The notes: generated from the sequence alone by a model not told the origin. A DNA stretch of 64,000 nucleotides from Oscillatoriales cyanobacterium (GCA_011390955.1 JAABRM010000001.1:46694-110693), one strand, 5' to 3'; positions 10,797 through 32,575 are shown, counted from the stretch's first letter. Translations and numbers: made by a program.

Positions 10797-12164
10797 ATGT
10801 CTAAATACGGCTACCTCTATCGCTTGGTAGGGGCGATCGCCATTTCCTCTGCTATTGTATCCCTGACCCTGGGGACGGTAATGAGATCGCACGAAAATGG
10901 GCGATCGACGAAACCACTCAACCTGTTGGCTGTCTCCAGACCGGCAGATCCGTTTCGAGAAGCGATCGGTCAAGCAACCAGGGCGGCAACTCTGGCTCAA
11001 AGCGCCTTCAGTCCCGCAGACTGGAACAAGGTAGCAATGGCTTGGATCGAGGCAGTGGCTTGGATGCAAACTGTTCCGCCCAATAGTCCTAAGCGGGTAT
11101 TTGCGGAGAAAAAAGTCGCGGAATATTTACAAAATTTCACCTTTGCCCAACGACGGGCAGCGGGAAATTTTGGCCTATCTTATCCCACTTTTAACAGTGA
11201 AATCCTCGATAGACAACTGGAATTGTATTTGTCTTATATTGCCGCAGTGGGCATTCCTGATGTGGCGATAATTGGCAGTTCCCGGGCGTTGCAAGGGATC
11301 GATCCCAGTGTTTTACAGCAAGCCTTGGCTGCCCAGGGTTATCCGGGGTTAAGAATTTTTAACTTTGGCGTCAATGGTGCGACGGCTCAAGTAGTCAATT
11401 TTATGTTGAGCCAATTGTTAACCCCCAACCAACTGCCTCGGATGATTATTTGGGCAGATGGTTTGCGAGCATTTAACAATGGTCGAGTCGATCGCACCTA
11501 CAACGAAATTCTCAATTCTCCGGGCTATCGACTCTTAAGGTCTGGCACTCGCCCCACTTTGGGGTCGCAATTGCCCGCTACCGCCATCAGTGAAGGGACT
11601 TTTCAGAACCAACAGCTTTATAGTTATCACCCCGTGGCTAATTATGCCACCTCAGACCCAAGAGTTTATCGCTTAGTCGGGGAAATTGTTCCGGGAATTT
11701 TAGCCCAAGGGCTCCAGGGAACTTCTCTGTTTGAAGCCATTGATGCCAATGGTTTTAGGGCTGTCTCTACTCGATTTAATCCCTCGGTTTATTATCAACA
11801 AAATCCGCGAGTATCGGGAAATTATGATGGGGACTATGCCCAGTTTCAACTCGGAGGGAGTCAAGAGGCGGCATTGCGATCGGCGGTCGCCCTCACCAAA
11901 GCCCGGAAAATTCCCTTGTTGGTGGTCAACTTGCCCGTGACCAATGACTACCTGGACAGCACCCGCAGTAATCGCCAACAACAATTTCGCCAGTATATGC
12001 AGAATCAGGCGCGATCGCTTGGTTTTGTCTGGCGGGACTATTCTCAAGGAAATCTCAGCCGCAATGATTATTTTGAAGACCCCAGTCACCTCAACCGCTT
12101 TGGCGCAGCGGCAGTAGCGCGGCAACTGGCGGGGGATCAAGCGCTGCGCTGGCCGAGACGGTGA
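10797..12164 (+). CDS. hypothetical membrane-anchored exported protein (possible SGNH/GDSL-like fold, uncertain)
   Basis: N-terminal hydrophobic anchor 'LVGAIAISSAIVSLTLGTV'. Blocks 'AIIGSSRALQGID' and 'NFGVNGATA' are loosely reminiscent of SGNH hydrolase blocks. No firm family assignment. Confidence 0.45.
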   Translation: MSKYGYLYRLVGAIAISSAIVSLTLGTVMRSHENGRSTKPLNLLAVSRPADPFREAIGQATRAATLAQSAFSPADWNKVAMAWIEAVAWMQTVPPNSPKRVFAEKKVAEYLQNFTFAQRRAAGNFGLSYPTFNSEILDRQLELYLSYIAAVGIPDVAIIGSSRALQGIDPSVLQQALAAQGYPGLRIFNFGVNGATAQVVNFMLSQLLTPNQLPRMIIWADGLRAFNNGRVDRTYNEILNSPGYRLLRSGTRPTLGSQLPATAISEGTFQNQQLYSYHPVANYATSDPRVYRLVGEIVPGILAQGLQGTSLFEAIDANGFRAVSTRFNPSVYYQQNPRVSGNYDGDYAQFQLGGSQEAALRSAVALTKARKIPLLVVNLPVTNDYLDSTRSNRQQQFRQYMQNQARSLGFVWRDYSQGNLSRNDYFEDPSHLNRFGAAAVARQLAGDQALRWPRR

Positions 12165-12642: not shown

Positions 12643-13344
12643 ATGGTCGTCTCCACGGGGCAACAAGCAGCTACCCAACTCACGCATTCTCTCCGAGCCA
12701 AACATCCGAAAAAGCATAATCATTACGGGTTTAAGGACTTTTTTCATTTTGATTCTACCCAAGGCACCATTACCGACTGGAATAACGCTCGGAATATTCT
12801 GACCAGTGAAGATTTTATCATTGGTTTAGTGGAAGGATTAGAAGAAGAAGTCGGCCCAGCTTCTTCGGTGATTATGTACACCATTGGCGAAGAATGGGGC
12901 AACAAAGATGCTGCTTTTTTTAAAGAATGGTTTGAAAAAGAATATGAGCGAGAAGTGCGCCAGACTAATTTAATGTTTCTATTAGAAACTTGGTGGTGGC
13001 CTTTTACTTCTCAAGGCTGGGGACGATGGGAAGTCGATTTGAGCGATCGCAAACATGGGTTTATGTTCATTAACTTATTTGATTCTGCCGTAGCTCGCAC
13101 CCTGGGAGACGTGGGCAAACCCGTTTGTTATATCTACGCGGGATTATTTGCCGGTTTCTTTAGTTGCTTAGTGAAAAAACCCCTAAGCTGCATTGAATTG
13201 CAATGCTACTCAATGGGAGAAACTTACTGTAAATTTCTCATCGGCAACAAAGACCGGATTGATGCGGCAGCTTTTTGGCAAAATGAAGGAGCCACCGCTA
13301 ATGATATTCAACGACGAATGCAGTCCGGGGATCGACTAAAATGA
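12643..13344 (+). CDS. V4R (4-vinyl-reductase-like) domain protein, paralog 1
   Basis: C-terminal V4R cysteine signature 'CYIYAGLFAGFFSCLVKKPLSCIELQCYSMGETYCKF'. Paralogous to 14289-14957 ('IIGLVEGLEEEVG' vs 'IDAIYSGLEKETG'). Confidence 0.7.
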   Translation: MVVSTGQQAATQLTHSLRAKHPKKHNHYGFKDFFHFDSTQGTITDWNNARNILTSEDFIIGLVEGLEEEVGPASSVIMYTIGEEWGNKDAAFFKEWFEKEYEREVRQTNLMFLLETWWWPFTSQGWGRWEVDLSDRKHGFMFINLFDSAVARTLGDVGKPVCYIYAGLFAGFFSCLVKKPLSCIELQCYSMGETYCKFLIGNKDRIDAAAFWQNEGATANDIQRRMQSGDRLK

Positions 13345-13616
13345 ACCAGGCAAAGACTTTACTAAAACTATCAGTCGATCGGTTTTTTAGCCAATGCAAC
13401 TGGACTGGTCAACCCCTAGCAATTCTGGAAAATGCCGATCTAGAAACTGTTCCCGAAATTCGCCTGAGTTTATTAGTCAGCGAATATTTCCGCTTACTTC
13501 CCTGGGAAGGAACTCCGATCGTTGGTTCTCTGCCAAAAGTATCGGCTAATGTTGATTTGCTAGAAACCGATCCCCTTGATGATGTCACCCTTGAGGATCT
13601 CCTCGACTCTTTTTAG
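13341..13616 (+). CDS. hypothetical acidic small protein, translationally coupled (ATGA overlap) to the upstream V4R gene
   Basis: Start overlaps the previous stop by 4 nt. No known motif. Confidence 0.4.
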   Translation: MNQAKTLLKLSVDRFFSQCNWTGQPLAILENADLETVPEIRLSLLVSEYFRLLPWEGTPIVGSLPKVSANVDLLETDPLDDVTLEDLLDSF

Positions 13617-13617
13617 A

Positions 13618-13695
13618 GAGTAGGGTGGGCAATATCTTGCCCACCCTACGAATTGCTACAGTAGTAGGGTGGGCAAGATATTGCCCACCCTACAG
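13618..13695. repeat. two tandem perfect palindromes of the GTAGGG...CCCTAC family (terminator-like hairpins)
   Basis: 'gtagggtgggcaatatcttgcccaccctac' and 'gtagggtgggcaagatattgcccaccctac'. They lie immediately after the stop at 13616. Confidence 0.75.
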
Positions 13696-13750
13696 ATAGC
13701 TACAGATAGTTGAAATACTATTTATCCACATCTACCTAAGAATTAACGCT

Positions 13751-14227
13751 ATGCACCCAGAGCTTTTGAGCCTACTAGAAACGGCTGAACAGCGCTACCT
13801 AGAACCGAAAGAGATTGAACTTTATCGTCGCCATGCGGCCTCTTTAAATCGACGCTTACAAGCCTATGAAATGCTGCGAGAACAAGAAACAAAAATTTTT
13901 CAAGCGATCGCCGATAGACTGGTGAATGCATTACCAAATGAAAGCCAAGAAAATTTAGAACGGTGTTTGAAATATTGGCTGTTAATTGTGCGCTATAGTG
14001 CCACAGCGATGCTAATCAACGATCTTTCTTATTTACAAAACCGTTTGCAGGAATGGGTTAAGGGTTTACTAGAAACTTATGAAACCTATCAAATTGATGT
14101 GCAGGTTTATGACTTACTGATGCAGGAATTAAAAAATTACCTATCTCAAGACGATGTGCGGTTATTAGATCCGGTTCTCCAAAAAGCTAAGGATTTAATT
14201 ATCTCTAAGCAACCCGGCAATTCCTGA
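13751..14227 (+). CDS. phycobiliprotein-family (globin-fold, allophycocyanin-like 'Apl'-type) protein, orphan
   Basis: Region 'ERCLKYWLLIVRYSATAMLINDLSYLQNRLQEW' parallels the phycobiliprotein core '[29 protein letters not shown]'; the Cys sits at the chromophore-attachment position followed by the aromatic/LRIVxY block. No partner subunit, linker or lyase genes nearby. Confidence 0.6.
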   Translation: MHPELLSLLETAEQRYLEPKEIELYRRHAASLNRRLQAYEMLREQETKIFQAIADRLVNALPNESQENLERCLKYWLLIVRYSATAMLINDLSYLQNRLQEWVKGLLETYETYQIDVQVYDLLMQELKNYLSQDDVRLLDPVLQKAKDLIISKQPGNS

Positions 14228-14288
14228 AAAGTTAAGCAGAAAAATTGATTCAGTTTCAGCTAATTAAATATGAGGAATAGGAAGCAAA

Positions 14289-14957
14289 ATGATCTCAATT
14301 ACCAATTTGTTGGAAGATAACGATAAACTTTCAGGAAATTATTTTTCCTCGGATGTTTATGTGAAGGGGGATTTAGAGTTAGGACTATTAGAAAATCGTC
14401 GGGGCGATCGCCTCTTGGCTTTACCGGATACCCTGATTGATGCCATTTACAGCGGTTTGGAAAAAGAAACCGGATCTGCCACCCGTTTAGTGCTGTTTAA
14501 TTGTGGTAAATGGTGGGGCAAGAATTTATATGTCCGTTTTTGCGAAGAAATCCAAGATTACTATAATAAATCAATTGCAGAAATGGACATGATTTCGTTT
14601 GTCCAATGTTTACAACAATTTTGGAAAACTCATGGCTGGGGATTATTTGAATTTGACCAAACTTATTATCAACAAGGATTTTTGGTCTTTAAAATTACTA
14701 ATTCTTCTTTTGCCAAGAAAACCGAGAACTGGTCTGGTCCTGCTTGTTTTTTAGAAGCGGGGATTTTAACTAGCTATTTTAGTCAACTCACCGGACGAGA
14801 ACTTACCTGCGTGCAAACCACTTGTGAATCCCTTGGGGCTGATTGTAATCGGTTTATTTTGGGTTTGCCCGACCGTCTGGAACCAGTGGAAGGTTGGGTT
14901 ACAGAAGGTCTAAACCATGACACGATTATGCATCGATTGTCTGAAACCCAAAATTAA
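14289..14957 (+). CDS. V4R (4-vinyl-reductase-like) domain protein, paralog 2
   Basis: V4R signature 'CFLEAGILTSYFSQLTGRELTCVQTTCESLGADCNRF'. Confidence 0.7.
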   Translation: MISITNLLEDNDKLSGNYFSSDVYVKGDLELGLLENRRGDRLLALPDTLIDAIYSGLEKETGSATRLVLFNCGKWWGKNLYVRFCEEIQDYYNKSIAEMDMISFVQCLQQFWKTHGWGLFEFDQTYYQQGFLVFKITNSSFAKKTENWSGPACFLEAGILTSYFSQLTGRELTCVQTTCESLGADCNRFILGLPDRLEPVEGWVTEGLNHDTIMHRLSETQN

Positions 14958-15061: not shown

Positions 15062-15550
15062 TCTGATTTTATAGCACTTGTCAGAGTTATGAAGTACAAA
15101 AAAACCTGTCATTCCCGCCTTCGCGGGAATCCAGAAAACCTCTGTAATCCAGATAATAACCGCTATACAGCCTATTCAGAAATAATCCGATCCAATCTCT
15201 ATAGCACTTGTCATAGTTATGAAGTACAAAAAAACCTGTCATTCCCGCCTTCGCGGGAATCCAGAAAACCTCTGTAATCCAGATAATAACCGCTATACAG
15301 CCTATTCAGAAATAATCCGATCCAATCTCTATAGCACTTGTCATAGTTATGAAGTACAAAAAAACCTGTCATTCCCGCCTTCGCGGGAATCCAGAAAACC
15401 TCTGTACTTCATCCAGATAAGTAGGTGAAAATAATTAATTGCACTTTTCGTTTTCCGCCAATAGGCTTTGGATTCCCGCCTTCGCGGGAATGACAGCCTT
15501 TCTTCTCGTGGGGTCTGTAGTGCATTTATTTCTGCCCACCTACTTAATAA
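15062..15550. repeat. MITE-like composite repeat; left module triplicated as a ~130-bp tandem unit, followed by inverted right module
   Basis: Three near-identical units 'agcacttgtcatagttatgaagtacaaaaaaacctgtcattcccgccttcgcgggaatccagaaaacctctgtaatccagataataaccgctatacagcctattcagaaataatccgatccaatctctat'. These are followed by 'ggattcccgccttcgcgggaatgacagcc...tttatttctgcccacctactta'. Confidence 0.8.
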
Positions 15551-15618: not shown

Positions 15619-17709
15619 CTAGGCAAAATGCCAAATTTTGACCGTTCTGTCCCAACTGCCACTGACCAAAGTTTGACCATCAGGACTAAAGGCTAAAGAG
15701 TTTACAGTTCCTAAATGGTTGAGAGTTTGTAGTAGTTCTCCGGTGTGATAATTCCAGATTCTAATGGTGTTATCTTGGCCCCCACTGGCGAGAGTTTGGC
15801 GATCGGGACTGAAGGCTAAACAAGATACATAACCTTCATGGTCAGTGAGGCTTTTTTCTAGTTTGCCGGTTTCCAGATTCCATAAATAAATTGGTTGGTC
15901 AGAACCACCGCTGGCAATGATTTTGTCATCGGGACTAATGGCGATCGCCCAAATAATGCCTTTAGACTGATCGAACCAAGAGGCTAATGACCCAAAAAAA
16001 TCATCGGGGCGGTTTAATGTTCGCAGTCTTTTTTCTGCCCGCCAATTCCAAATCATAATCGCACTATCGGCGCCGCCACTGACCAAAATTCGACCATCAG
16101 AACTAAAGGCGATCGCGGTAACTTCCCAGCCATGTCCTTTTAAAGTATATGCAACTTTGCCTCGATCTATTTGCCAAATTCTAATCGCCGTATCCACAGC
16201 GGTAAAACCAATATGTCCACTAGCAAGATATTGTTGGTCACGACTAAATGCCAAACTCCCTACCCGCAGATTGACTAATGAAGCGCCCAGAGATTTTTGC
16301 AGCTTTCTCGTATTTAAATCCCACAGCTTAATTGTGCCATCATTAAATTCGTGATTGCTGGAACTAGCTAATATTTTCCCATCGGGACTAAACGCCAGCG
16401 CAATAATCGCGCTATGGTGTCCGGTGAGGGTTTCTAGGATTTCTCCGGTTGCCGCATTCCATAGTTTAATTGTATTATCTTGACTGCCACTGGCGATGGT
16501 TTTTCCATCAGGACTCATGGCTACGCAAATAATCGGTTGCGTATGTCCAGTTAAGATATGTTTGATTTTCCAAGCGGGAGGCGGTAAAAAGTCTTTCCAG
16601 CTTGGGGGTTTAACGGCAGGATTTTGGCAAATTACCGGCAACCAACTCACCCCCGGATATTTTTTATCCCAGGCATCTTCGAGTTTTTTGCGGGCTAATA
16701 ATACTGAGGTATAAAAAGATTGGTTGCTGGCAAAGGCAGTGAGGAAATCCCTTAAAAAATCCTGGGCTACTTGGTCTGGTATGCGATCGCGCATGACAAT
16801 TATCTGGGGAAACTGTAAGTCTTCCAATTCATTGGCTAATCCCAAACCGTTGCAAGAGTTAAAAAAGGCAATTTTTAAGCCATTTTGAATCGCAGTTTTT
16901 AGAGCATTTTTAAATTCGGGAATCGCCAGATTATCTTGGGCATTAAGCTTAATCCAACCAGTTGCTCGATCGAAATTGCTGTTGCTATGGCCATCAAAAA
17001 ATAAAATATCCCAGCCTTGTGGTTGCCAAAGCATATCCCGGAATGTTTCCGGTGTTGGTTCGATTAACGACACAATTTCGGCATCGTTTAAATGGAGTTT
17101 AATTAAATCTAAGTCAGGGGAACTATTGCCGTCAGGGTATTTTTCTAACCCGGTGCGATCGCCCACCACCACCAAAATTCTCACTCGGTCATGTTTGGTC
17201 TTTTCTCTCCGGGGAGGTGGGGTAAACTCTGGGGTACTCAGGGCAATTTCTACGGGAACCGAAGCATCGGCAAAAAATCTCCAAACGTGCCAAGGGAGGA
17301 GACGAAGTTGCGGGTTTTTGGTTTGAATAATCACCCTAACTTCATTCGTCCCCATTAAATTGCGATTTAATTCATCCCGGATTTTTAGCCAGTCTTCATG
17401 CCCAGAATTCAGCCATCCATTTAACTTTTGAATAAATTGACTTTTCCACTCCACAGCAGGAGTAGCCATAGGACTTTCTGGTTCGTCCTCAAATTGAGAA
17501 CGTTTCATTCCCGGAAGATTCTGATATCCTCTTTGCCAATAGTTATAAAGTTGCCAAAGCGTCGGATTTGTGTCATCTTCTGGCGGCAGTTTACCTTGCA
17601 CTTGGATTTCGCTTCCCGTAGCATCATCATCATCCTGAATTCGCAGCAAAGCCGGAAATCCTGGCTGAAAATTGCCCTCGAATAGGGTTAAGATAACTCG
17701 CTTTCCCAT
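15619..17709 (-). CDS. caspase-like (CHAT/metacaspase-type His-Cys dyad) domain fused to C-terminal WD40 repeats
   Basis: His/Cys dyad context 'ILFFDGHSNSN' ... 'IAFFNSCNGLG'. C-terminal ~8 WD40 units ('AFSPDGKILASSS...TIKLWD'). Confidence 0.8.
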   Translation of the reverse strand: MGKRVILTLFEGNFQPGFPALLRIQDDDDATGSEIQVQGKLPPEDDTNPTLWQLYNYWQRGYQNLPGMKRSQFEDEPESPMATPAVEWKSQFIQKLNGWLNSGHEDWLKIRDELNRNLMGTNEVRVIIQTKNPQLRLLPWHVWRFFADASVPVEIALSTPEFTPPPRREKTKHDRVRILVVVGDRTGLEKYPDGNSSPDLDLIKLHLNDAEIVSLIEPTPETFRDMLWQPQGWDILFFDGHSNSNFDRATGWIKLNAQDNLAIPEFKNALKTAIQNGLKIAFFNSCNGLGLANELEDLQFPQIIVMRDRIPDQVAQDFLRDFLTAFASNQSFYTSVLLARKKLEDAWDKKYPGVSWLPVICQNPAVKPPSWKDFLPPPAWKIKHILTGHTQPIICVAMSPDGKTIASGSQDNTIKLWNAATGEILETLTGHHSAIIALAFSPDGKILASSSNHEFNDGTIKLWDLNTRKLQKSLGASLVNLRVGSLAFSRDQQYLASGHIGFTAVDTAIRIWQIDRGKVAYTLKGHGWEVTAIAFSSDGRILVSGGADSAIMIWNWRAEKRLRTLNRPDDFFGSLASWFDQSKGIIWAIAISPDDKIIASGGSDQPIYLWNLETGKLEKSLTDHEGYVSCLAFSPDRQTLASGGQDNTIRIWNYHTGELLQTLNHLGTVNSLAFSPDGQTLVSGSWDRTVKIWHFA

Positions 17710-17732
17710 TGATATCTCCGATGATTACCAAT

Positions 17733-17868
17733 TCTGTAAGGTGGGCAAAATTTGCCCACCCTACTATTATTAATCGATCTTGTAAATCTTGTAAGGTGGG
17801 CAAAATTTGCCCACCCTACTATTATTAATCGATCTTGTAAGGTGGGCAAAATTTGCCCACCCTACGAT
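17733..17868. repeat. three tandem perfect palindromes (GTAAGGTGGGCAAAATTTGCCCACCCTAC) with ~45-bp period, GTAGGG...CCCTAC family
   Basis: Direct reading. They occupy the whole intergenic space between two co-oriented minus-strand genes. Confidence 0.8.
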
Positions 17869-17875
17869 TAGAAGG

Positions 17876-19036
17876 TTAGATCACAAAATTTTCTGTGATG
17901 CTTACCTCTCCTAATGATAATCGAATACTGAATTGTTCTCCGACCGAACCGCTAAAACCTTGGAGTTCTAAGAAATTGGGATTCGTGGGTTGTGCTTGTC
18001 TGAAAGTATTACCGGATCGATCGAACACGATAACTTGAAGATTTTCAGGCAAATCATTCTCCTCATCGATCGCTTCTATGCGAATTCGGATACTGACTTT
18101 CTGCTCGTTTTTCGGGCGAAATGCTACCAGTAAAGCAACCGTAAAAGATTGCGTTTCGCTGACTAAATCGATCGCTTTTGCCATTTCAATTCCCGCTTGG
18201 GGATGACTGGGATTAATTTTCCCCAAACTTAAAGCCGCTTGCCAAAGAGTTTCGCTATCTTCACTGGTTGCGAGTAAGTCACTCAAAGCGGCGATCGCTT
18301 CAGGAGAGTTTACCCCAATGTCCCCTAATTCCGTGGCAATTTGCCGCCGAGTTATTTCGTCATTGGTGGTTTGCAACCGTTGGATCAGAGGGGCGATCGC
18401 TTCTATTTCATAGGGTGACATAGCACCCTTGTGAGCACCCGTTGCCAGTACCAGTTGTGGTTGCTGCCAATAAGGTTCAAAAATCTCATCTCGGAGATTT
18501 TGCAGCCATTGTCGCCAATTTATCGGCGCTGTTGCGGACTGGAGGCGGACAGCCAAAATTGGCACACCCAATATTTCTGTTAATTGCTTTGTTTTGAACA
18601 AATACTCAATTCGTTCAAATGCTTCTAGGCAACTTTCCAAGACCAGAACAACACTTCCTGGCTCGATTTTTTTCAGGGCAATGAAAGGATTGCCTAAAAG
18701 TTCATTTGCTAACTCAATTAAAGCTTCTGCTTTTTGCCGATCTACTTCGTTGAGTGTAGCACTTAAAAGTAATAACCAGGTGCTTTCCGCAGTCTGAGTA
18801 GTCGGAGTATCTATTGTATTGTCCACAACCTCTTCCCAGTTAACTCCTACTGCCTGACAAATTGCCTTAAATACTTCCTCTTGAATTCTTTTTCCTTGCC
18901 GAAAACGCCGCAAAGTTGCTGGTGAAGTTTGAGCCGCATCAACCCAAGCTACAGCATCCGCGTTCCAGCCTTTCTTTCTTCTAGCTAAATCGACTTTTGC
19001 CAAGCCTTCTTTTGTTGCTTTTAGTGTAATTGCCAT
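17876..19036 (-). CDS. alpha-helical N-terminal adaptor-like domain + HEAT (PBS-lyase-type) repeats + C-terminal domain shared with ORF 39003-39617
   Basis: N-terminus 'TLKATKEGLAKVDLARRKKGWN...ATLRRFRQG...FKAICQAVGVNWEEV' is homologous to the N-terminus of STAND ORF 22452-23810 ('TLKASELGLSKIQQARKDSGRN...ATWRRFLTG...FKAFCQVLGFDWREI'). Mid-region has HEAT-like 'ELGDIGVNSPEAIAALSDLLATSEDSETLWQAALSLGKI'. The C-terminal ~70 aa resemble the C-terminus of 39003-39617. Confidence 0.6.
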   Translation of the reverse strand: MAITLKATKEGLAKVDLARRKKGWNADAVAWVDAAQTSPATLRRFRQGKRIQEEVFKAICQAVGVNWEEVVDNTIDTPTTQTAESTWLLLLSATLNEVDRQKAEALIELANELLGNPFIALKKIEPGSVVLVLESCLEAFERIEYLFKTKQLTEILGVPILAVRLQSATAPINWRQWLQNLRDEIFEPYWQQPQLVLATGAHKGAMSPYEIEAIAPLIQRLQTTNDEITRRQIATELGDIGVNSPEAIAALSDLLATSEDSETLWQAALSLGKINPSHPQAGIEMAKAIDLVSETQSFTVALLVAFRPKNEQKVSIRIRIEAIDEENDLPENLQVIVFDRSGNTFRQAQPTNPNFLELQGFSGSVGEQFSIRLSLGEVSITENFVI

Positions 19037-19606
19037 TATTACCTCAAATTTAGTTGTCAGTCGATCTCAGTTTGATCTCAGTTTGATCTCAGTTGGGCGA
19101 TCGCTCATAAAGATGAGCCTATTTAAACCTTTTCTATACAGCACCATTAAGGTGTGGAGAAAAGTTAGCGCTAACTCCCTTTCTCCTCAGCAGTCAATCA
19201 ATGACCTTGAGGCAGAAACGAGCTATGAAAACTCAATTTTTTACTTCCCCAGTCCTCGTTGTAATTATACTACTGGTCGAGTCCATTTCCTCAGTTTCTT
19301 TGGCAGCCAATTCCCAGTTAAGCCAAAAAGCTGCTATGACCTTGACTGACTCGGAAATTATCGCCAACCAAGACGGCGATCGCACTTCAGAGTCGGATCA
19401 ATGCGACCCAGAGCAAATAAATTGTAACAAAGTATAATCAACCCGCCTTGTTTTCTAATTCCCCTTACGGCTGAAAAAACGCCTTGGGGAATTCTTGAAC
19501 CAATCTAAAAATTTTCCCCCATTCCCACCCTTATTGCCAAGGGGGTTGGGGGAATATTGTGCATAACTCTCGATATATTCATTTCAATTGTGATTGATAC
19601 AATGCT

Positions 19607-19633
19607 GTAGGGGCGCAATGCTTGCGCCCCTAC
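19607..19633. repeat. palindrome GTAGGGGCGCAATGCTTGCGCCCCTAC (GTAGGG...CCCTAC family)
   Basis: Perfect 27-bp palindrome. A near-copy with a degenerate right end is at 3941-3963. Confidence 0.75.
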
Positions 19634-19834
19634 TTGTATTAATTTTAATTCAAACAACTATAAATCATATTTTATTACCCCGATCGAAGCACTTGTGCTG
19701 TATTTATATTTTTGCTTAACAATAATTATTATATTTAAAAATATAATAATTATAATTTTTGCTAAAATACCTTTATTTGGTATATAATTAAACTAAGCAA
19801 ATAACTGCCGAAATTTATCATAAAAATAACTGGC

Positions 19835-20761
19835 ATGACTCGCGAAATCCATGACCAATTTGCTAAAGACTATCTCTCAGAATTACTATCTCATCTCGGA
19901 GAAGTCGAAACCAGCCGGGAAGTCACATCAGAAGTGCGACAAGTGGATGTTTATTTTATCCCCGCTGCCACGCCAAAGGACATCGATCCCAAACTCTTAG
20001 GGTTACTCGCGCCTATGGCCAAAACCGCTGGTTTATTTGAGCCATTTCGCAATCCTCCGACCCCGGTAGAAATCTCTAATTGTTTGGTAAAACTCTTTGG
20101 CGTTCAGGGGGAACAACGCCGCCAAGCCCGTCGGGAAAATGTCAGCCAAACTCAACTTGAATCACCGCGTTTGTGGATTTTATCCCCTTCCATTTCAACG
20201 CCAATTCTGCGCGGGTTTGGGGCGAAACCAGGCGAGTCAGAGGAATGGCCACCGGGAATCTATTTTCTGCCAAAATTTTTTTATACGGGACTGGTGGCAA
20301 TTCATCAGCTACCCGTGACCCCAGAAACTCTCTGGTTGCGGGTTTTGGGTCGGGGAGAAGTCCAAAAAGCGGCGATCGATGAGTTGGTAGCTTTGCCAGA
20401 AGCCAATCCTTTACGGCGTTATCTGCTGGAAATCTTGGCCTCCTGGCGGATCAATGTGGAATTAAGTCAAAATTTAGATGAGCAAGAAAAACAGGAGTTG
20501 ACTATGAACTTATCACCGGCATATTTACGTTGGCGAGAAGAAACTTTTCTTGAAGGTCGTCAAAAAGGTCTTCAAGAAGGTCTTCAAGAAGAACGCCGTT
20601 CAATGATAGAAAATTTCCTGCGAGTTCGCTTTGGAGAAGTGGATGAGCAATTGTCTCAGATTATTGAGTCAATGTTAGGATTGCCTACGGCAGAATTGAC
20701 CGTAATGTTGCTGAATTTTTCCCGGTCTGAGTTGTTAGAAAGATTTGGCCAAAATCGTTAA
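19835..20761 (+). CDS. Rpn/YhgA-like (PD-(D/E)XK) recombination-promoting nuclease / putative transposase family protein
   Basis: N-terminal 'IHDQFAKDYLSELL' matches the family-typical 'HDxxFKxxL' start. The size and C-terminal helical region fit the DUF4351-type tail seen in cyanobacterial members. Confidence 0.65.
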   Translation: MTREIHDQFAKDYLSELLSHLGEVETSREVTSEVRQVDVYFIPAATPKDIDPKLLGLLAPMAKTAGLFEPFRNPPTPVEISNCLVKLFGVQGEQRRQARRENVSQTQLESPRLWILSPSISTPILRGFGAKPGESEEWPPGIYFLPKFFYTGLVAIHQLPVTPETLWLRVLGRGEVQKAAIDELVALPEANPLRRYLLEILASWRINVELSQNLDEQEKQELTMNLSPAYLRWREETFLEGRQKGLQEGLQEERRSMIENFLRVRFGEVDEQLSQIIESMLGLPTAELTVMLLNFSRSELLERFGQNR

Positions 20762-20765
20762 TTAT

Positions 20766-20796
20766 GTAGGGACATGGGCTTTCGCCGTGTCCCTAC
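20766..20796. terminator. hairpin GTAGGGACA-N13-TGTCCCTAC between convergent genes (GTAGGG...CCCTAC family)
   Basis: 'gtagggacatgggctttcgccgtgtccctac' lies 5 nt after the stop at 20761 and upstream of the stop of the minus-strand kinase gene. Confidence 0.5.
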
Positions 20797-20845
20797 AAGG
20801 CAATGCCGTGTCTTTGGTCAAGTCATACCAAAAATATCTGAATAA

Positions 20846-22483
20846 TTAATCCTGGTAGGCTTGGCGTCCTTTTTCTTTTAACCAATGATCTAATTCTGGT
20901 AAGCTGATAGAATCTATGGGACATTTTTCTAATGCGTCTTTTGTCCCAGAAGCGTCTCTCAAACGTTCCATTACTGGTGCGAGAATACAATAAGCTTCTG
21001 GCCGATCGCTGCTAATTGCGATCGCTTCTTCCAGGTATTCCTCCGCATTTTCGTATTGTTCCAGACAGAGTTGTGCTCTACCCAGGTTGGTCAGCAAGCC
21101 ATATTTTCCCGCATATTTTGTAGCGATTTTTAAACCCTCTAAAAATAGGAAAGCTGCCCTCTGACAATCTTGCTTTCCTTGCTCTAGCAGATAGAGGCGT
21201 CCCAGGTTATTATAGGCTGAGGGGTTTTTATATTTAATCGCTTGCTCATATTCCCGAATCGCTGAAGCAATATCGTTTTGGTCTTCATAAAGGGAGCCAA
21301 GATTATAATAAGCTTGGCCGTAATCTGACTTTAGTAATATCGCTATTTGATAGGAATTTTTAGCCCGGTTAAACTGTTGACTTCTGTGATATATAATTCC
21401 CCGTTGATTCATCTCAATAGCCAGTTTATTTGACGCAAAATACCAGCCGATCGCCAATGCCGTTAGTAATAATATTACAGAAGCGATCGCTTTCTGGCCT
21501 TTAAGAAGTTTTTCTGTTATTATATCCTTAAATGGGATAACTTTGCCTGCGGGATCGCCAGATTCTAAATATTCTAAACCTGCTAAAGATTCTAAATCAT
21601 TTAACCGGGATAAAATAACTTCGTTACTGGAGGGACGTTCCCTGGGAAACAAAGCCATCATCTCATCCAGTAAATCTGCCAATTTATCGGGAATTTCCGA
21701 TGCGCGATCGCGCCAAATTAAATCCCCGTTCGTTTCATTTTCTGGTAAATTAATCGGCACAATTCCCGTCAGCAAATGCACCATTGTCCGACCGAGGGCA
21801 AAGAAATCTGATTGAGGCACCGCTTTGCCATTCATTTGCTCAATTGGAGTATAACCTTGTGGGGACATTAATCTCGTATGTTCCGCATCTTCTCCTAACT
21901 TTACCAGATAAGTATTGTTAATTTGCCTAACTCCTCCAAAGTCAATTAAAACCAGCTTGCCGTCCGGTTTCACCATAATATTTTCTGGCTTAATATCCCG
22001 GTGAAAGTAATGATTTTGGTGCAGTTTTTGCAATATTTCCAGCAGTTGTTTTAACCAGTCAATTGCCAATGATGAGGCAATCGGTTGATTATCTCTTTGC
22101 TTTAACCAGGTTAATAAATTTTCCCCGGCAATTTTTTCCATCACCAAACAGTGAATGGTTTCCCGGTCGGCTTCAATGGTAAAATATCCGTCTGGTTCGA
22201 CTTTGGGAATGCCGGGATGATTCAGGTGGCTTAAAACTTTTGCTTCCCGTTGAAACAGCGCGATCGCCTTGTCTTTTTCTGATGGGGGAAAGTTCTCTAA
22301 ATTGAGAACTTTGAGAACTTTAATAAATTTAACTTTATGGCAAGACTTTTCATCCCGGACAGCAAAAACTTCGCCAAAGCCTCCTGACCCAAGCTTTTCC
22401 ACAATTCTATAGCGGTTTTGCACCAGCATACCGATAGATAACATAAGCAACTCACTGGAATATGTGCTTAAATTGGTTAACAA
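20846..22483 (-). CDS. Ser/Thr protein kinase - transmembrane segment - TPR repeats
   Basis: Hanks kinase motifs 'LGSGGFGEVF', 'YFHRDIKPENIMV', 'DFG'. TM 'AIASVILLLTALAIGWYF'. C-terminal TPR-like 'AYYNLGSLYEDQNDIASAIREYEQAIKY...AYNNLGRLYLL'. The first ATG (22483) overlaps the upstream gene by 32 nt; in-frame ATGs at 22444/22429 are alternatives. Confidence 0.85.
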   Translation of the reverse strand: MLTNLSTYSSELLMLSIGMLVQNRYRIVEKLGSGGFGEVFAVRDEKSCHKVKFIKVLKVLNLENFPPSEKDKAIALFQREAKVLSHLNHPGIPKVEPDGYFTIEADRETIHCLVMEKIAGENLLTWLKQRDNQPIASSLAIDWLKQLLEILQKLHQNHYFHRDIKPENIMVKPDGKLVLIDFGGVRQINNTYLVKLGEDAEHTRLMSPQGYTPIEQMNGKAVPQSDFFALGRTMVHLLTGIVPINLPENETNGDLIWRDRASEIPDKLADLLDEMMALFPRERPSSNEVILSRLNDLESLAGLEYLESGDPAGKVIPFKDIITEKLLKGQKAIASVILLLTALAIGWYFASNKLAIEMNQRGIIYHRSQQFNRAKNSYQIAILLKSDYGQAYYNLGSLYEDQNDIASAIREYEQAIKYKNPSAYNNLGRLYLLEQGKQDCQRAAFLFLEGLKIATKYAGKYGLLTNLGRAQLCLEQYENAEEYLEEAIAISSDRPEAYCILAPVMERLRDASGTKDALEKCPIDSISLPELDHWLKEKGRQAYQD

Positions 22484-23810
22484 TATACTTCATTACCACG
22501 GGCTGAAGGGTAAACATCACTGGATCGGAGTCGCTGGTTTTTTCCGTAATTTTTTCAATCAGCGATCGCCTTGCTAAAGACTCCAAAACTTCGATAATTT
22601 GCGAGTGAGAAACCGCTGGGGAAATTTTCTCCCGCATTTGGGAAATAGTTACCGGAGATTCAGCGGTAGCGATGCGATAAAGTACCTTTTTTTCTATGTC
22701 GGAAAGTCGCTCAAACTGCCGGTCTAAAACCTCACTCAATTGTCCCACAAATATAGTATTTTGTTGGATAAATTCCGAACTTTTGCCATTAAATAATTCT
22801 AAAACAGTATCAGCGACAATTTTTAACGCCAACGGGTTGCCTCGATAGCGTTGAATCAGACGATCCCATTCCGGTTCTTCGACTAATCCTTGTTCTTGCA
22901 AAAGTTGTCGGGCTGCCCTTTTTTGCAGTCCCGATATTTTTAAACAACGCACCGGACGCTTACGACCTTCTAGCTTGACAATTTCACGGGGTTTTTCGTG
23001 ACTGGTGATGACAAAGCAGCTTTTATGTATGGATGCACCAATTTGGTAGAATAATTTGGCATAATCTTCATACCCTGGACGATATTTTCCCGCCAGGTCG
23101 TTATTACTAAAAAGGGATTCCAAGCCATCAAGAATAATTAAACAGCGCTGGGAATTGCACAGTTCAACTAAGCGGACGATATTACTTTCTAAGGTATCTG
23201 GTAATGCTTTTTTCGCCTGAGAATTCGGGATTGATTTAATCAGGTTGGGGATAAATTTGTCTGGAGGCGGGGCATATTGCAGACTGCGCCAGATGACGAT
23301 TTGAAACCGATATTTTAGCTGTTTGGCTAATTGGATGGCCAGGGTGGTTTTGCCAATTCCCCCCATACCCAAAATTGCGATTAAGCGGCAGTTTTCTTCG
23401 CCAATCCATTCGCTCATTTGTGTCAATTCTAAGGTGCGATCGTAAAAAACAGTCACCTCTGGGCAGCTATCCCAATCAATGTATTGACCGTCGCTGAGGT
23501 CTTCCAGGTCGGCGTCGGGGCGATCGGCAATTTCCCGCCAGTCGAAGCCCAAAACTTGACAAAAAGCTTTAAACGCCGGGGCAGCCACCGAATATCCGGT
23601 TAAAAAACGTCTCCAGGTGGCCTCGGAACAGCCCTCAGCGTAGGACCCACCAGATGCCCACTCTGACTCTGGACACAAAATCTCACTGGCAGCCACAAGC
23701 CATTCACTGTCATCGCGGTTTCGCCCGCTGTCCTTTCGCGCCTGCTGAATTTTGCTTAATCCCAGTTCAGAGGCTTTGAGAGTGTCCATGCTACCCCAAT
23801 ATCCTTGCAA
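22452..23810 (-). CDS. STAND NTPase (NB-ARC/AP-ATPase type) with N-terminal alpha-helical adaptor domain and no C-terminal repeat sensor
   Basis: Walker A 'GMGGIGKTTLA'. Walker B region 'CLIILDGLESL'. N-terminal domain is homologous to that of 17876-19036. The protein ends ~200 aa after the NTPase core without WD40/TPR repeats. Confidence 0.8.
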   Translation of the reverse strand: MQGYWGSMDTLKASELGLSKIQQARKDSGRNRDDSEWLVAASEILCPESEWASGGSYAEGCSEATWRRFLTGYSVAAPAFKAFCQVLGFDWREIADRPDADLEDLSDGQYIDWDSCPEVTVFYDRTLELTQMSEWIGEENCRLIAILGMGGIGKTTLAIQLAKQLKYRFQIVIWRSLQYAPPPDKFIPNLIKSIPNSQAKKALPDTLESNIVRLVELCNSQRCLIILDGLESLFSNNDLAGKYRPGYEDYAKLFYQIGASIHKSCFVITSHEKPREIVKLEGRKRPVRCLKISGLQKRAARQLLQEQGLVEEPEWDRLIQRYRGNPLALKIVADTVLELFNGKSSEFIQQNTIFVGQLSEVLDRQFERLSDIEKKVLYRIATAESPVTISQMREKISPAVSHSQIIEVLESLARRSLIEKITEKTSDSDPVMFTLQPVVMKYIVNQFKHIFQ

Positions 23811-24053
23811 GTTTCAAGGTCAATTTTAGATCGGTTTGGGGATTCGGATGAATCTCAACTAGGAAGATTTACTGTTTCATTCCCACCCGAAAGTCGAGTC
23901 CCGTGGTCTCCAAAGGTGAATCGATGGGAAAAAACTGCCAAAGGTTAAGGGTGGTTGATGCCATAAACTTAGAGTGGGCTTTTATCCTACCCTAAGTCTA
24001 TGGATCGAGGATCTAAGTGTTAATAAGTGTTAATTTTCCTGTTGGAATCCAGA

Positions 24054-32439: not shown

Positions 32440-32575
32440 TTTACTGTTTATAGCGGTTTTTATTGGATGAAGTACAGAGGTTTTCTGGATTCTTTTTCTG
32501 GATTCCCGCCTGCGCGGGAATGACAGGTTTTTTTGTCCTTCATCACTCCGAAAAGTGCTATAAAAACCCATCGTT
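32440..32575. repeat. MITE-like repeat fragment (inverted orientation of left module)
   Basis: 'ggatgaagtacagaggttttctggattc...ggattcccgcctgcgcgggaatgacaggttttttt'. Flanked by a 'gaaaccgggtttct' palindrome at 32345-32405. Confidence 0.55.

What the first reader, a model, noticed from the sequence alone, without database searches (positions are those of the whole stretch)
15619..19036. Adaptor-domain/HEAT protein directly upstream of a caspase-like(CHAT)-WD40 protein, separated by three tandem perfect hairpins
The upstream gene (17876-19036) starts with the same ~80-aa helical domain that heads the STAND NTPase at 22452-23810 ('TLKAxxxGLxKxxxARxxxGxN...ATxRRFxxG...FKAxCQxxGxxWxEI'). That is a short N-terminal module of the effector-associated/adaptor type, followed by HEAT repeats. 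The downstream gene (15619-17709) encodes a His/Cys-dyad caspase-like protease domain fused to WD40 repeats. Adaptor-domain proteins paired with caspase-like effectors are a recurring theme of prokaryotic conflict/NLR-like systems. Here the pair lacks any NTPase. The 166-bp spacer is entirely occupied by three 29-bp perfect palindromes (17733-17868), which could act as an attenuator or protein-binding array controlling read-through into the protease gene.
Basis: partly seen in the sequence, partly recalled or inferred. Interest (0 to 1): 0.5.

Follow-up and report, generated by a model that had tools for sequence, protein, structure and literature searches.

The report
TRADD-N/caspase gene pair in four-gene cassette
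The two genes are a real, conserved pair of a kind already predicted by computation to be a bacterial cell-death or immunity module. They belong to a four-gene cassette that does include an NTPase, and the hairpins between them are an ordinary repeat that multiplied locally in this strain.

Summary

**Gene A (19036..17876, minus strand)** has four parts: an N-terminal helix-turn-helix-like domain, a TRADD-N domain, HEAT repeats, and the C-terminal part of DUF1822.

**Gene B (17709..15619, minus strand)** has a constant N-terminal alpha+beta module, a CHAT caspase domain with invariant His241 and Cys286, and WD40 repeats.

[quoted passage not shown] (eLife 2021). Their table lists the ortholog WP_017719549.1.

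**The claim "lacks any NTPase" is wrong.** In seven distinct loci the order STAND NTPase -> Ser/Thr kinase-TPR -> A -> B is conserved on one strand; an eighth, truncated contig shows the first three genes. The ~8.25-kb cassette sits between unrelated flanks in Planktothricoides raciborskii.

**The shared N-domain is one of several swappable N-terminal modules, two of them recognisable HTH types.** It behaves as an HTH module, not as a required adaptor.

**The hairpins are not part of the system.**
- They belong to a dispersed "GTAGGG...CCCTAC" class of intergenic palindromes.
- Close relatives have one copy in this spacer.
- More distant orthologs have none.
- This strain amplified it to three copies.

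**Verdict:** a new member of a known, experimentally untested kind. Interest is moderate.

The parts
15621..23870 (-). Extent of the conserved cassette: DNA shared with Planktothricoides raciborskii CP159837, where both flanks are unrelated.
   Evidence: blastn: window 23870..19203 and 18643..15621 align to L004 at 88-94% identity. The homology ends at the stop codon of B and about 80 bp upstream of the STAND start. The flanking genes differ.
22452..23789 (-). Minimal STAND NTPase: N-terminal Xre-like HTH-type domain (about 23511-23789), then an NB-ARC/NACHT NTPase (Walker A GMGGIGKT, Walker B LIILDG). No repeat sensor is fused.
   Evidence: Pfam NB-ARC 39.2 bits, NACHT 35.3 bits. The start at M8 is taken from the orthologs. 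Motifs checked. Syntenic in all orthologous loci.
20846..22444 (-). Hanks-type Ser/Thr protein kinase fused to TPR repeats, 7 bp downstream of the STAND gene.
   Evidence: Pkinase E 3.3e-32 and several TPR families. HRDIKPEN and DFG motifs are present. Orthologs are 42-91% identical and always lie next to the STAND gene. The kinase domain matches PADLOC PD-T4-6 kinase models.
19835..20761 (+). 308-aa opposite-strand gene of unknown function (weak DUF4351 match), between the two operons. Probably a passenger.
   Evidence: DUF4351 scores 20.1 bits, below cutoff. Present in the window, L001 and L004; absent in L006, L008, L009 and L020. No NCBIfam or PADLOC hit.
17876..19036 (-). Gene A. Domains: HTH-like N-domain (18821-19036), TRADD-N (18539-18784, conserved GS motif with S128 at 18653-18655), HEAT repeats (18197-18412), DUF1822 C-terminal beta-sandwich (17879-18190).
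   Evidence: Pfam TRADD-like_N 32.2 bits, HEAT_2 40.9 bits, DUF1822 100.9 bits. The AF2 model shows 5 helices, then beta-alpha-beta-beta-alpha-beta, then 4 helices, then 8 strands. Ortholog alignment A1. Ortholog WP_017719549.1 is listed as HTH+TRADD-N+TPRs in Kaur et al. 2021.
17736..17865 (-). Three identical 29-nt near-palindromes (17736-17764, 17791-17819, 17837-17865) in the 166-bp A-B spacer. This is a REP-like intergenic hairpin amplified in tandem.
   Evidence: The spacer RNA folds at -82.5 kcal/mol, z -9.7. There is one copy at the orthologous site in L001, L002 and L004, and none in L006, L008, L009 or L020. No U-tract and no Rfam family.
15619..17709 (-). Gene B. Domains: EACC2-type alpha+beta module (17350-17709), CHAT caspase domain (16615-17349; H241 at 16987-16989, C286 at 16852-16854), WD40 beta-propeller (15622-16572).
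   Evidence: B is 50% identical over its full length to the Oscillatoria sp. PCC 10802 protein that Kaur et al. label EACC2+CASPASE+BetaPropeller.
19063..19094 (-). 11-nt tandem repeat (AAACTGAGATC on the gene strand, about 3 copies) directly upstream of the ribosome-binding site of A. Function unknown.
   Evidence: L001 has 4 copies. The repeat is absent in L004, where the promoter and the 5' end of A are replaced.

Best explanation
**What it is.** Genes A and B are the downstream half of a conserved ~8-kb four-gene cassette of filamentous Oscillatoriales cyanobacteria:
1. HTH-NB-ARC STAND NTPase
2. Ser/Thr kinase-TPR
3. A: HTH-TRADD-N-HEAT-DUF1822
4. B: EACC2-CHAT caspase-WD40

The A-B half is a member of the TRADD-N / EACC2-caspase two-gene systems that Kaur, Iyer, Burroughs and Aravind (2021) predicted to be conflict (immunity or programmed cell death) modules with a transcriptional output.

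**Shown here**
- The domain content of the proteins.
- An intact catalytic dyad, Walker motifs and kinase motifs.
- Strict synteny of the four genes at 42-94% protein identity.
- Movement of the cassette as a unit between unrelated flanks.
- General adjacency of DUF1822 genes and EACC2-CHAT genes.
- Frequent swapping of the N-terminal modules of both A and the NTPase.

**Inferred mechanism**
- The WD40 propeller of B, and/or the TPR-kinase and the NTPase, sense a trigger.
- This activates the CHAT protease.
- A docks on B through its DUF1822/HEAT part.
- The TRADD-N domain acts as a conformational switch. The cassette kinase may phosphorylate its conserved Ser128.
- Cleavage or rearrangement frees the N-terminal HTH, which changes transcription.
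- This would resemble CHAT proteases that control sigma factors (Csx29-Csx30-CASP-sigma; DdvA-DdvS).

**The hairpins.** The three hairpins are not part of this logic. They are a REP-like intergenic palindrome inserted in the A-B spacer of one lineage and triplicated in this strain. At most they modulate the A:B expression ratio through mRNA 3'-end protection or partial termination.
For: **Domains**
-.

**Synteny of all four genes**
- Window, L001, L004/L005, L006/L010, L008, L009 and L020; L011 is partial.

**Cassette boundaries and different flanks**
-.

**The pair is already catalogued**
- Kaur et al. 2021, section 9, and the fig3-data1 row for WP_017719549.1.
- That accession is P0012, the L006 ortholog.

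**Family of the B N-module**
- More than 200 homologs have a constant N-module with hypervariable C-termini: CHASE2, GUN4, NACHT, nSTAND1, macro, TPR, pentapeptide and others.

**Fusions that support linking the NTPase and kinase to the pair**
- EACC2+CASPASE fused to STAND, nSTAND1+BetaPropeller or Pkinase appear in Kaur's tables.
- NACHT and nSTAND1 fusions appear.

**DUF1822 next to the caspase module**
- A DUF1822 gene is directly upstream of the EACC2-CHAT gene in L013-L016.

**N-terminal HTH swapping**
-.

**Precedents for CHAT proteases controlling sigma factors**
- PMC10028731 and PMC11506125.

**Hairpins**
-.
Against: - No experiment exists for any member of this system.
- No protease substrate is known.
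- The N-domain of A reaches only sub-threshold HTH scores, and its AF2 model is of low confidence.
- No shared operator-like motif was found upstream of A and the NTPase beyond what shuffled sequence gives.
- PADLOC has no model for A, the NTPase, or the protease part of B.
- The orthologous group with all four genes is small and confined to Oscillatoriales: about 6 lineages, and only 5 loci among GTDB species representatives. Part of the synteny could therefore be shared ancestry.
- A developmental or signalling role rather than immunity cannot be excluded.
Confidence: 0.7

Rival explanations
1. The shared N-terminal ~75-aa domain is a homotypic adaptor, like an EAD or Death-like domain. It would bridge the STAND NTPase to protein A, which in turn recruits the caspase: an apoptosome-like assembly split over several genes.
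For: - The domain heads both A and the NTPase in this locus.
- Across 1.84 billion representatives it has 506 hits. It is almost always at residues 1-75.
- It is found mainly on STAND NTPases (36 of 110 scanned) and TRADD-N proteins (23 of 110). This terminal position and these contexts are typical of EADs as described in Kaur et al. 2021, section 12.
- A second cluster, L020, again has matching N-modules on the NTPase and on A, but of another type: LuxR-like, 36% identity, E 3e-18.
- The evidence that it is an HTH is below threshold.
Against: - The two proteins carry different N-modules in 4 of 6 lineages: L004, L006, L008 and L009.
- The 2 of 6 that match is about what random draws from 3-4 module types would give.
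- One alternative module passes the Pfam thresholds for DNA-binding HTH families: Sigma70_r4_2 26.8 bits against 25.7, and GerE 24.8 against 23.5. Another is pre-annotated as PF26355 HTH_VMAP-M9.
- Kaur et al. label this domain HTH.
- Other proteins with the domain occur with no partner copy nearby (L017, L019).
Confidence: 0.15
2. The hairpin array is a dedicated attenuator or a protein-binding operator array that gates read-through from A into the protease gene B.
For: - The stems are very stable: -82.5 kcal/mol, z -9.7.
- They sit between the stop codon of A and the ribosome-binding site of B.
- A single copy is kept at this site in three related genomes.
- Three of the four stem differences, across the three lineages, are G:U pairs on the mRNA strand.
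- Each repeat unit also carries a weak promoter-like match on the gene strand.
Against: - The hairpin is absent from the A-B spacer of the more distant orthologs (L006, L008, L009, L020), which have a conserved 28-nt spacer instead.
- The copy number of three is specific to this strain.
- The same TGGGCAA-type palindrome lies, also amplified, at 13620 and 13664 between unrelated genes.
- The wider GTAGGG...CCCTAC class lies at 19607, 20766 and 48365, and in other loci, including between convergent genes.
- There is no U-tract, no alternative antiterminator structure, and no Rfam family.
Confidence: 0.1
3. The cassette is an ordinary signalling or developmental regulator set with no role in conflict or cell death. 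It would combine Ser/Thr kinase signalling, a STAND-type transcription factor like MalT or AfsR, and a HetF-like CHAT protease.
For: - HTH-STAND proteins and Hanks kinases are common regulators in filamentous cyanobacteria (general knowledge).
- There are no PADLOC hits for A, the NTPase, or the protease part of B.
- In the window, the neighbouring genes are housekeeping or photosynthesis-related.
Against: - The cassette moves between unrelated genomic contexts.
- Its N-terminal modules are swapped even between clusters that are about 90% identical.
- The C-termini of the caspase family are hypervariable.
- Relatives sit next to R-M systems, toxin-antitoxin genes, IS elements and relaxase genes.

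These are hallmarks of conflict systems, as argued by Kaur et al..
Confidence: 0.15

Closest known systems
TRADD-N / EACC2-caspase two-gene neighbourhoods (Kaur, Iyer, Burroughs, Aravind, eLife 2021; Fig. 3H and fig3-data1)
   Same: The architecture is the same: HTH+TRADD-N+helical repeats (annotated as DUF1822), followed on the same strand by EACC2+caspase+beta-propeller. The ortholog WP_017719549.1 (49% identical to A) is listed with exactly this neighbourhood.
   Different: The published row marks the upstream gene as '??' and does not link the pair to the STAND NTPase and kinase-TPR genes. Here those genes are syntenic in all orthologous loci. The paper links DUF1822 and an ECF sigma factor to TRADD-N-independent versions, whereas here HTH, TRADD-N and the DUF1822 part are fused in one protein.
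Type III-E CRISPR Craspase (Cas7-11 / Csx29 TPR-CHAT / Csx30 / CASP-sigma)
   Same: The closest solved fold to B's protease module is Csx29 (7zoq_A, E 4e-12). In both cases a repeat-bearing CHAT protease is encoded next to a protein that controls a DNA-binding output (PMC10028731).
   Different: There is no Cas7-11 and no crRNA. The sensor is WD40 rather than an RNA-guided complex. The HTH is fused to the presumed partner or substrate rather than being a separate sigma factor. Sequence identity is only about 13%.
[quoted passage not shown]
   Same: Fold match to DdvA (8rot_A, E 3e-7). The theme is a CHAT domain coupled to release of a transcription factor that controls a defence island (PMC11506125).
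   Different: DdvA is a membrane protein with an incomplete His-Cys site. B is cytoplasmic, has a complete dyad, and carries WD40 repeats.
Bacterial NLR-like STAND defence proteins (Avs, bNACHT) and the Apaf-1 apoptosome
   Same: The same kinds of parts are present: an NB-ARC/NACHT NTPase, a WD40 or TPR sensor, a caspase and an adaptor-type domain.
   Different: The parts are split over four proteins. The NTPase is minimal (445 aa, no fused sensor) and carries an HTH rather than an enzymatic effector. PADLOC gives no hit.
REP / REPIN elements (repetitive extragenic palindromes)
   Same: These are short GC-rich palindromes with a GTAG head. They are multi-copy and strictly intergenic, often lie between genes of one operon or between convergent genes, and vary in copy number between strains. 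In E. coli, REPs stabilise upstream mRNA without terminating transcription, as summarised in PMC12642595.
   Different: The stems are only 14 nt. No associated RAYT transposase was looked for. The number of copies across the genome is unknown. The GTAG-head resemblance is recalled from the REP literature and was not tested here.

Membership tests
TRADD-N / EACC2-caspase two-gene system (Kaur et al. 2021) | One gene encodes a protein with a bacterial TRADD-N domain placed between other domains. | tested here: met
   PF20694 scores 32.2 bits against a cutoff of 23.7, at aa 104-163. The AF2 model shows beta-alpha-beta-beta-alpha-beta at aa 85-166. The GS motif is conserved (S128). The domain is flanked by the HTH and by HEAT/DUF1822.
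TRADD-N / EACC2-caspase two-gene system (Kaur et al. 2021) | The adjacent same-strand gene has a constant N-terminal alpha+beta (EACC2) plus caspase module and a variable C-terminus. | tested here: met
   - More than 200 homologs share the ~370-aa N-module with hypervariable C-termini.
- The model shows 3 strands and 3 helices followed by a caspase fold.
- B is 50% identical to the protein that the authors label EACC2+CASPASE+BetaPropeller.
- No public EACC2 HMM was available, so the EACC2 label rests on orthology.
TRADD-N / EACC2-caspase two-gene system (Kaur et al. 2021) | The gene pair is conserved across genomes. | tested here: met
   The pair is present in the window, L001, L002, L004, L005, L006, L007, L008, L009, L020 and L021. 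DUF1822 -> CHAT adjacency holds in L013-L016.
TRADD-N / EACC2-caspase two-gene system (Kaur et al. 2021) | It functions as a counter-invader or cell-death system. | not testable with these tools
   This is only a prediction in the literature. No later paper mentions EACC2.
CHAT / clan CD caspase-like peptidase | A catalytic His-Cys dyad in a caspase-hemoglobinase fold. | tested here: met
   H241 (GHS) and C286 (NSC) are invariant in 25 sequences. Foldseek matches Csx29, separase, SAVED-CHAT, gingipain and caspases. Pfam CHAT for the window protein itself is just below cutoff (22.2 against 24), while its homologs carry PF12770.
STAND / NLR-like NTPase defence protein (Avs, bNACHT) | A P-loop STAND NTPase with Walker A and Walker B motifs. 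| tested here: met
   NB-ARC and NACHT score above their cutoffs. GMGGIGKT and LIILDG are present.
STAND / NLR-like NTPase defence protein (Avs, bNACHT) | Sensor repeats and an effector fused in the same polypeptide, and a match to known defence models. | tested here: not met
   The protein is 445 aa with no repeats. Its N-terminus is HTH-like. PADLOC gives no hit.
Xre/Cro-C1-type helix-turn-helix domain (the N-domain of A and of the NTPase) | A significant match to an HTH family or to a solved HTH structure. | tested here: inconclusive
   - HTH_31 E 0.002, HTH_26 E 0.0036, HTH_3 E 0.0068, all below cutoff.
- A profile search against the PDB finds ClgR best, at E 0.36 over 56 aligned residues.
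- The AF2 model shows five helices at low confidence.
- Supporting context: in orthologs the position is filled by a GerE/Sigma70_r4 domain scoring above threshold and by a domain pre-annotated as HTH_VMAP-M9.
Intrinsic terminator / attenuator | A GC-rich stem-loop followed by a U-tract; for an attenuator, also alternative structures or a leader peptide. | tested here: not met
   The terminator scan reports nothing at 17736-17865. The sequence after each stem on the gene strand is AAGAT... or AGAAT...
REP / REPIN-like dispersed palindromes | Multi-copy intergenic palindromes that share a conserved head and vary in copy number. | tested here: met
   There are 8 GTAGGG...CCCTAC palindromes in the 64-kb window, all intergenic, plus further copies in related loci. 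Copy number differs between the window and L001 at two sites.
REP / REPIN-like dispersed palindromes | An associated RAYT (Y1 transposase) and hundreds of copies across the genome. | not tested
   The whole genome was not available. No scan for a Y1 transposase was done.

The most novel reading that the evidence does not exclude
The four genes would form a "disassembled apoptosome":
- a minimal NB-ARC NTPase;
- a TPR-kinase;
- a TRADD-N/DUF1822 adaptor;
- a WD40-caspase.

Together they would act as one signalling machine. In this reading the cassette kinase phosphorylates the universally conserved TRADD-N serine (S128), which is the switch residue that Kaur et al. predicted but for which no modifying enzyme has been proposed. 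The exchangeable N-terminal HTH modules on the NTPase and on the TRADD-N protein would set which regulon, or which partner, the activated complex addresses.
Probability: 0.12. Interest if true: 0.65.

Novelty: new member of a known kind. Interest (0 to 1): 0.38.

Why it matters
TRADD-N and caspase-like CHAT proteins link bacterial conflict systems to animal cell-death signalling. No member of the TRADD-N / EACC2-caspase class has yet been tested experimentally.

This locus offers a compact and sharply bounded four-gene version (~8.25 kb). All catalytic motifs are intact. Natural variants exist that differ only in the N-terminal HTH/TRADD-N cassette, or in the number of hairpins (0, 1 or 3) between A and B.

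That makes several questions directly testable:
- What does the caspase cleave?
- Does the HTH bind DNA?
- Do the kinase and the NTPase feed into the TRADD-N switch?

The hairpin array itself is of minor interest. It is an example of a REP-like repeat multiplying locally.

Tried and rejected
1. **Rfam search of 13-25 kb**. Only sub-threshold, miRNA-like hairpin matches were found. There is no known RNA family.
2. **Promoter and terminator scan**. No U-tract terminator lies at the hairpins. The weak promoter-like matches inside the repeat units are not above background.
3. **Foldseek with the whole-chain model of A**. Nothing was significant; the model's pLDDT is 64.7.
4. **Profile of the N-domain against PDB sequences**. 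The best hit is an Xre HTH (ClgR), but at E 0.36, so this is not proof.
5. **NCBIfam on A, B, the N-domains, the 308-aa gene and the 78-aa ORF**. Nothing informative was found.
6. **PADLOC**. Only the generic kinase domain (PD-T4-6 models) and the WD40 repeats match. I rejected this as evidence of membership in a defence system.
7. **Search for a shared operator upstream of A and the NTPase**, in the window, L001 and L020. No match exceeded the shuffled controls.
8. **Test for co-variation of the N-modules of A and the NTPase**. They match in 2 of 6 lineages, which is about chance, so an obligatory pairing is rejected.
9. **CRISPR-like reading of the three repeats.** Rejected: the "spacers" are copies of the same sequence, so this is a tandem 55-nt unit.
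10. **GTDB genome scan**. It returned only 5 loci, so the census of the orthologous group is small.

Full report
**1. What is in the sequence**

The window comes from a filamentous cyanobacterium. It carries many heptamer STRR-like arrays. Its proteins are about 90% identical to those of Planktothricoides raciborskii.

- Two minus-strand ORFs lie at 17876-19036 (gene A, 386 aa) and 15619-17709 (gene B, 696 aa).
- They are separated by 166 bp.
- The spacer holds three identical 29-nt near-palindromes, GTAAGGTGGGCAAAATTTGCCCACCCTAC, at 17736, 17791 and 17837. None would be expected by chance.
- Each has 14-nt arms with one mismatch. That mismatch is A:C on the plus strand and G:U on the mRNA strand.
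- The three are copies of a 55-nt unit duplicated in tandem.

**2. The proteins**

*Gene A.* Pfam finds three domains:

| Domain | Residues | Score |
|---|---|---|
| TRADD-like_N | aa 104-163 | 32.2 bits (cutoff 23.7) |
| HEAT_2 | aa 214-280 | 40.9 bits (cutoff 27.7) |
| C-terminal 40% of DUF1822 | – | 100.9 bits |

- The first ~75 aa give only sub-threshold HTH hits (HTH_31 E 0.002, HTH_26 E 0.0036).
- An AF2 model is of modest quality (pLDDT 64.7). It shows five N-terminal helices, then a beta-alpha-beta-beta-alpha-beta unit at aa 85-166, then four HEAT helices, then an eight-stranded beta-sandwich.

*Gene B.*
- It has strong WD40 repeats.
- Its N-terminal 380 aa score just under the Pfam CHAT cutoff.
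- That module belongs to a large family of more than 200 homologs. They share a constant ~370-aa module and have hypervariable C-termini: CHASE2, GUN4, NACHT, nSTAND1, macro, TPR, pentapeptide, FHA and GTPase.
- In 25 aligned members, GHS (H241) and NSC (C286) are invariant.
- The AF2 model (pLDDT 87.7, pTM 0.89) has an N-terminal alpha+beta unit followed by a caspase fold.
- Its best structural matches are Csx29 TPR-CHAT (E 4e-12), separase, SAVED-CHAT, gingipain, the CHAT anti-sigma factor DdvA, and caspases.

**3. This pair is already catalogued**

[quoted passage not shown] They note links to DUF1822 and to ECF sigma factors.

[quoted passage not shown] PCC 10802 | DUF1822 family protein".

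- That accession is P0012, the ortholog of A in locus L006, 49% identical to A.
- Its downstream gene is 50% identical to B over the full length.
- No later paper in the library mentions EACC2.

The class remains a computational prediction.

**4. The pair is half of a four-gene cassette**

In every orthologous locus long enough to show it, the order is STAND NTPase -> Ser/Thr kinase-TPR -> A -> B on one strand. The loci are:

- the window;
- L001 (a metagenome);
- L004/L005 (P. raciborskii);
- L006/L010 (PCC 10802);
- L008 (Oscillatoria princeps);
- L009 (Oscillatoria sp. Prado101);
- L020 (a metagenome);
- L011 (partial).

Identities to the window proteins, shown here for three of these loci (L001 / L004 / L006):

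| Protein | Identity (%) |
|---|---|
| STAND NTPase | 94 / 89 / 45 |
| Kinase-TPR | 91 / 82 / 42 |
| A | 92 / 62 / 49 |
| B | 87 / 92 / 50 |

- The NTPase and the kinase genes are 7 bp apart.
- At the DNA level, the window and P. raciborskii share 23870..19203 and 18643..15621. The homology ends exactly at the stop codon of B, and both flanks are unrelated (gene content). The ~8.25-kb cassette has therefore moved as a unit.
- Kaur's tables and one search also show the same caspase module fused to STAND NTPases, to beta-propellers and to a protein kinase. That is independent, fusion-type support for linking the NTPase and the kinase to the pair.

**5. The shared N-domain**

- The similarity between the N-terminus of A and that of the NTPase is real: 36% identity, E 2e-12.
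- The domain has 506 hits among 1.84 billion cluster representatives, almost always at residues 1-75.
- Of 110 proteins scanned, 36 are NACHT/NB-ARC NTPases, 23 carry TRADD-N, 17 carry pentapeptide repeats and 16 carry DUF1822.
- Its pattern fits an Xre-type HTH. The best PDB profile hit is the Xre regulator ClgR, but only at E 0.36.

More telling, the N-terminal position of both proteins is exchanged among orthologous clusters:

| Protein | N-terminal module | Loci |
|---|---|---|
| A | Xre-like | window, L001, L006, L008, L009 |
| A | sigma-r4-like (precomputed PF26355 HTH_VMAP-M9) | L004 |
| A | LuxR-type | L020 |
| NTPase | Xre-like | window, L001, L004 |
| NTPase | LuxR/sigma-r4 (Sigma70_r4_2 and GerE above cutoff) | L008, L009, L020 |
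| NTPase | undetected type | L006 |

- The two proteins match in the window/L001 lineage and in L020 (LuxR/LuxR, E 3e-18). They differ in the four other lineages. This is about what chance would give with 3-4 module types.
- In L004, the swapped tract covers the promoter of A plus codons 1-131, inside a cassette that is otherwise about 90% identical. This fits Kaur's remark that TRADD-N sits at the junction between constant and variable parts.

I conclude that the N-domain is most likely an exchangeable HTH output or targeting module. A homotypic adaptor role is not excluded, but it is not required by the system.

**6. DUF1822 is the constant partner of the caspase module**

In four distant loci chosen through homologs of B (40-45% identity), a DUF1822 gene lies directly upstream on the same strand: L013, L014 and L015, and a neighbouring pair in L016. 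In one of them a sigma-r4-like gene lies further upstream. This supports docking of the DUF1822/HEAT part of A onto B.

**7. The hairpins**

- The orthologous spacer has one copy of the hairpin in L001, L002 and L004, in 65-66-bp spacers.
- It has none in L006, L008, L009 or L020. Those share a nearly invariant 28-nt spacer that carries the ribosome-binding site of B.
- The same TGGGCAA-type palindrome lies at 13620 and 13664 in the window, as two copies. L001 has one copy there.
- A wider class, GTAGGG-palindrome-CCCTAC, lies at 19607, 20766 and 48365 and in other loci. All copies are intergenic, and some lie between convergent genes.
- There is no U-tract and no Rfam family.
- The array folds very stably, at -82.5 kcal/mol.

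These are REP-like elements, and the triple copy is a strain-specific tandem amplification. A nearby 130-bp element at 15070-15406 is amplified in the same way. By analogy with E. coli REPs (summarised in PMC12642595), the hairpins may protect the 3' end of the A message or damp expression of B. They are not a conserved part of the system.

**8. Mechanism (inferred)**

Shown: the parts, the intact motifs, the synteny, the mobility of the cassette and the module swapping.

Inferred:
- The WD40 propeller, the TPR-kinase and the NTPase sense a trigger.
- The CHAT protease is activated.
- A, docked through DUF1822/HEAT, switches through TRADD-N and releases or unmasks its HTH, giving a transcriptional response.

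This would parallel Csx29-Csx30-CASP-sigma (PMC10028731) and DdvA-DdvS (PMC11506125).

One speculative but testable addition: the cassette kinase may act on the conserved TRADD-N serine (S128), which Kaur et al. predict to be the switch residue.

**9. Verdict**

The conflict-type adaptor-caspase pair is real. The identity of the N-domain, the "no NTPase" claim and the attenuator idea are not supported.
- Novelty: a new member of a known, computationally defined kind. Two modest additions are the four-gene linkage and the shuffling of HTH modules.
- Interest: 0.38.

Noticed in passing
window 15070-15406 (also 32449-32565): A ~130-bp unit is repeated 2.6 times in tandem just downstream of gene B. 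It is single-copy at the orthologous site in L001, and another copy lies at 32449-32565. It looks like a MITE-like dispersed element. Together with the hairpins at 13620/13664 and at 17736-17865, this strain shows tandem amplification of small repeats at three neighbouring intergenic sites.
   Followed up: partly
window 13620-13693: Two copies of the same palindrome type (GTAGGGTGGGCAA..TTGCCCACCCTAC) lie between a 91-aa ORF and a phycobilisome-like gene. L001 has one copy at the orthologous site (11964-11993).
   Followed up: yes
window 19063-19094: An 11-nt tandem repeat (AAACTGAGATC on the strand of gene A) lies right upstream of the ribosome-binding site of A. The window has 3 copies and L001 has 4. 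It is absent in L004, where the promoter and 5' end of A are replaced. It could be an operator or just a variable repeat.
   Followed up: partly
window 19201-19437 (+) and 19835-20761 (+): A 78-aa ORF with a hydrophobic, signal-like N-terminus and a 308-aa gene (weak DUF4351 match) lie on the opposite strand between the two operons. Both are conserved in L001 and L004 but absent from the more distant cassettes.
   Followed up: partly
L006 8207-8234, L008 ~11138-11168, L009 ~7315-7345, L020 6447-6474: The distant orthologs share a nearly invariant 28-nt A-B spacer (TGGCCTCAAGGCTTSTGAGGAGATGKCR). A CCTCA/TGAGG stem in it overlaps the Shine-Dalgarno sequence of B, which could give translational control of the protease gene.
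   Followed up: no
L017 (whole contig), L018 5551-6504 and 7233-11098: Other proteins carrying the same N-domain sit in mobile or defence contexts. A NACHT protein lies next to relaxase/NikA genes (L017). Two paralogous HTH-TRADD-N-pentapeptide genes lie next to a type I restriction-modification system (L018).
   Followed up: no
L014 3303-4972: In Mastigocladopsis repens, the A-like gene upstream of the CHAT gene appears broken into HTH, HEAT and DUF1822 pieces by an IS1-type insertion.
   Followed up: no
window 12643-14957: Two V4R-domain proteins and a phycobilisome-like protein form a small plus-strand cluster downstream of the cassette. The cluster is conserved in L001 but not next to the cassette in P. 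raciborskii.
   Followed up: no
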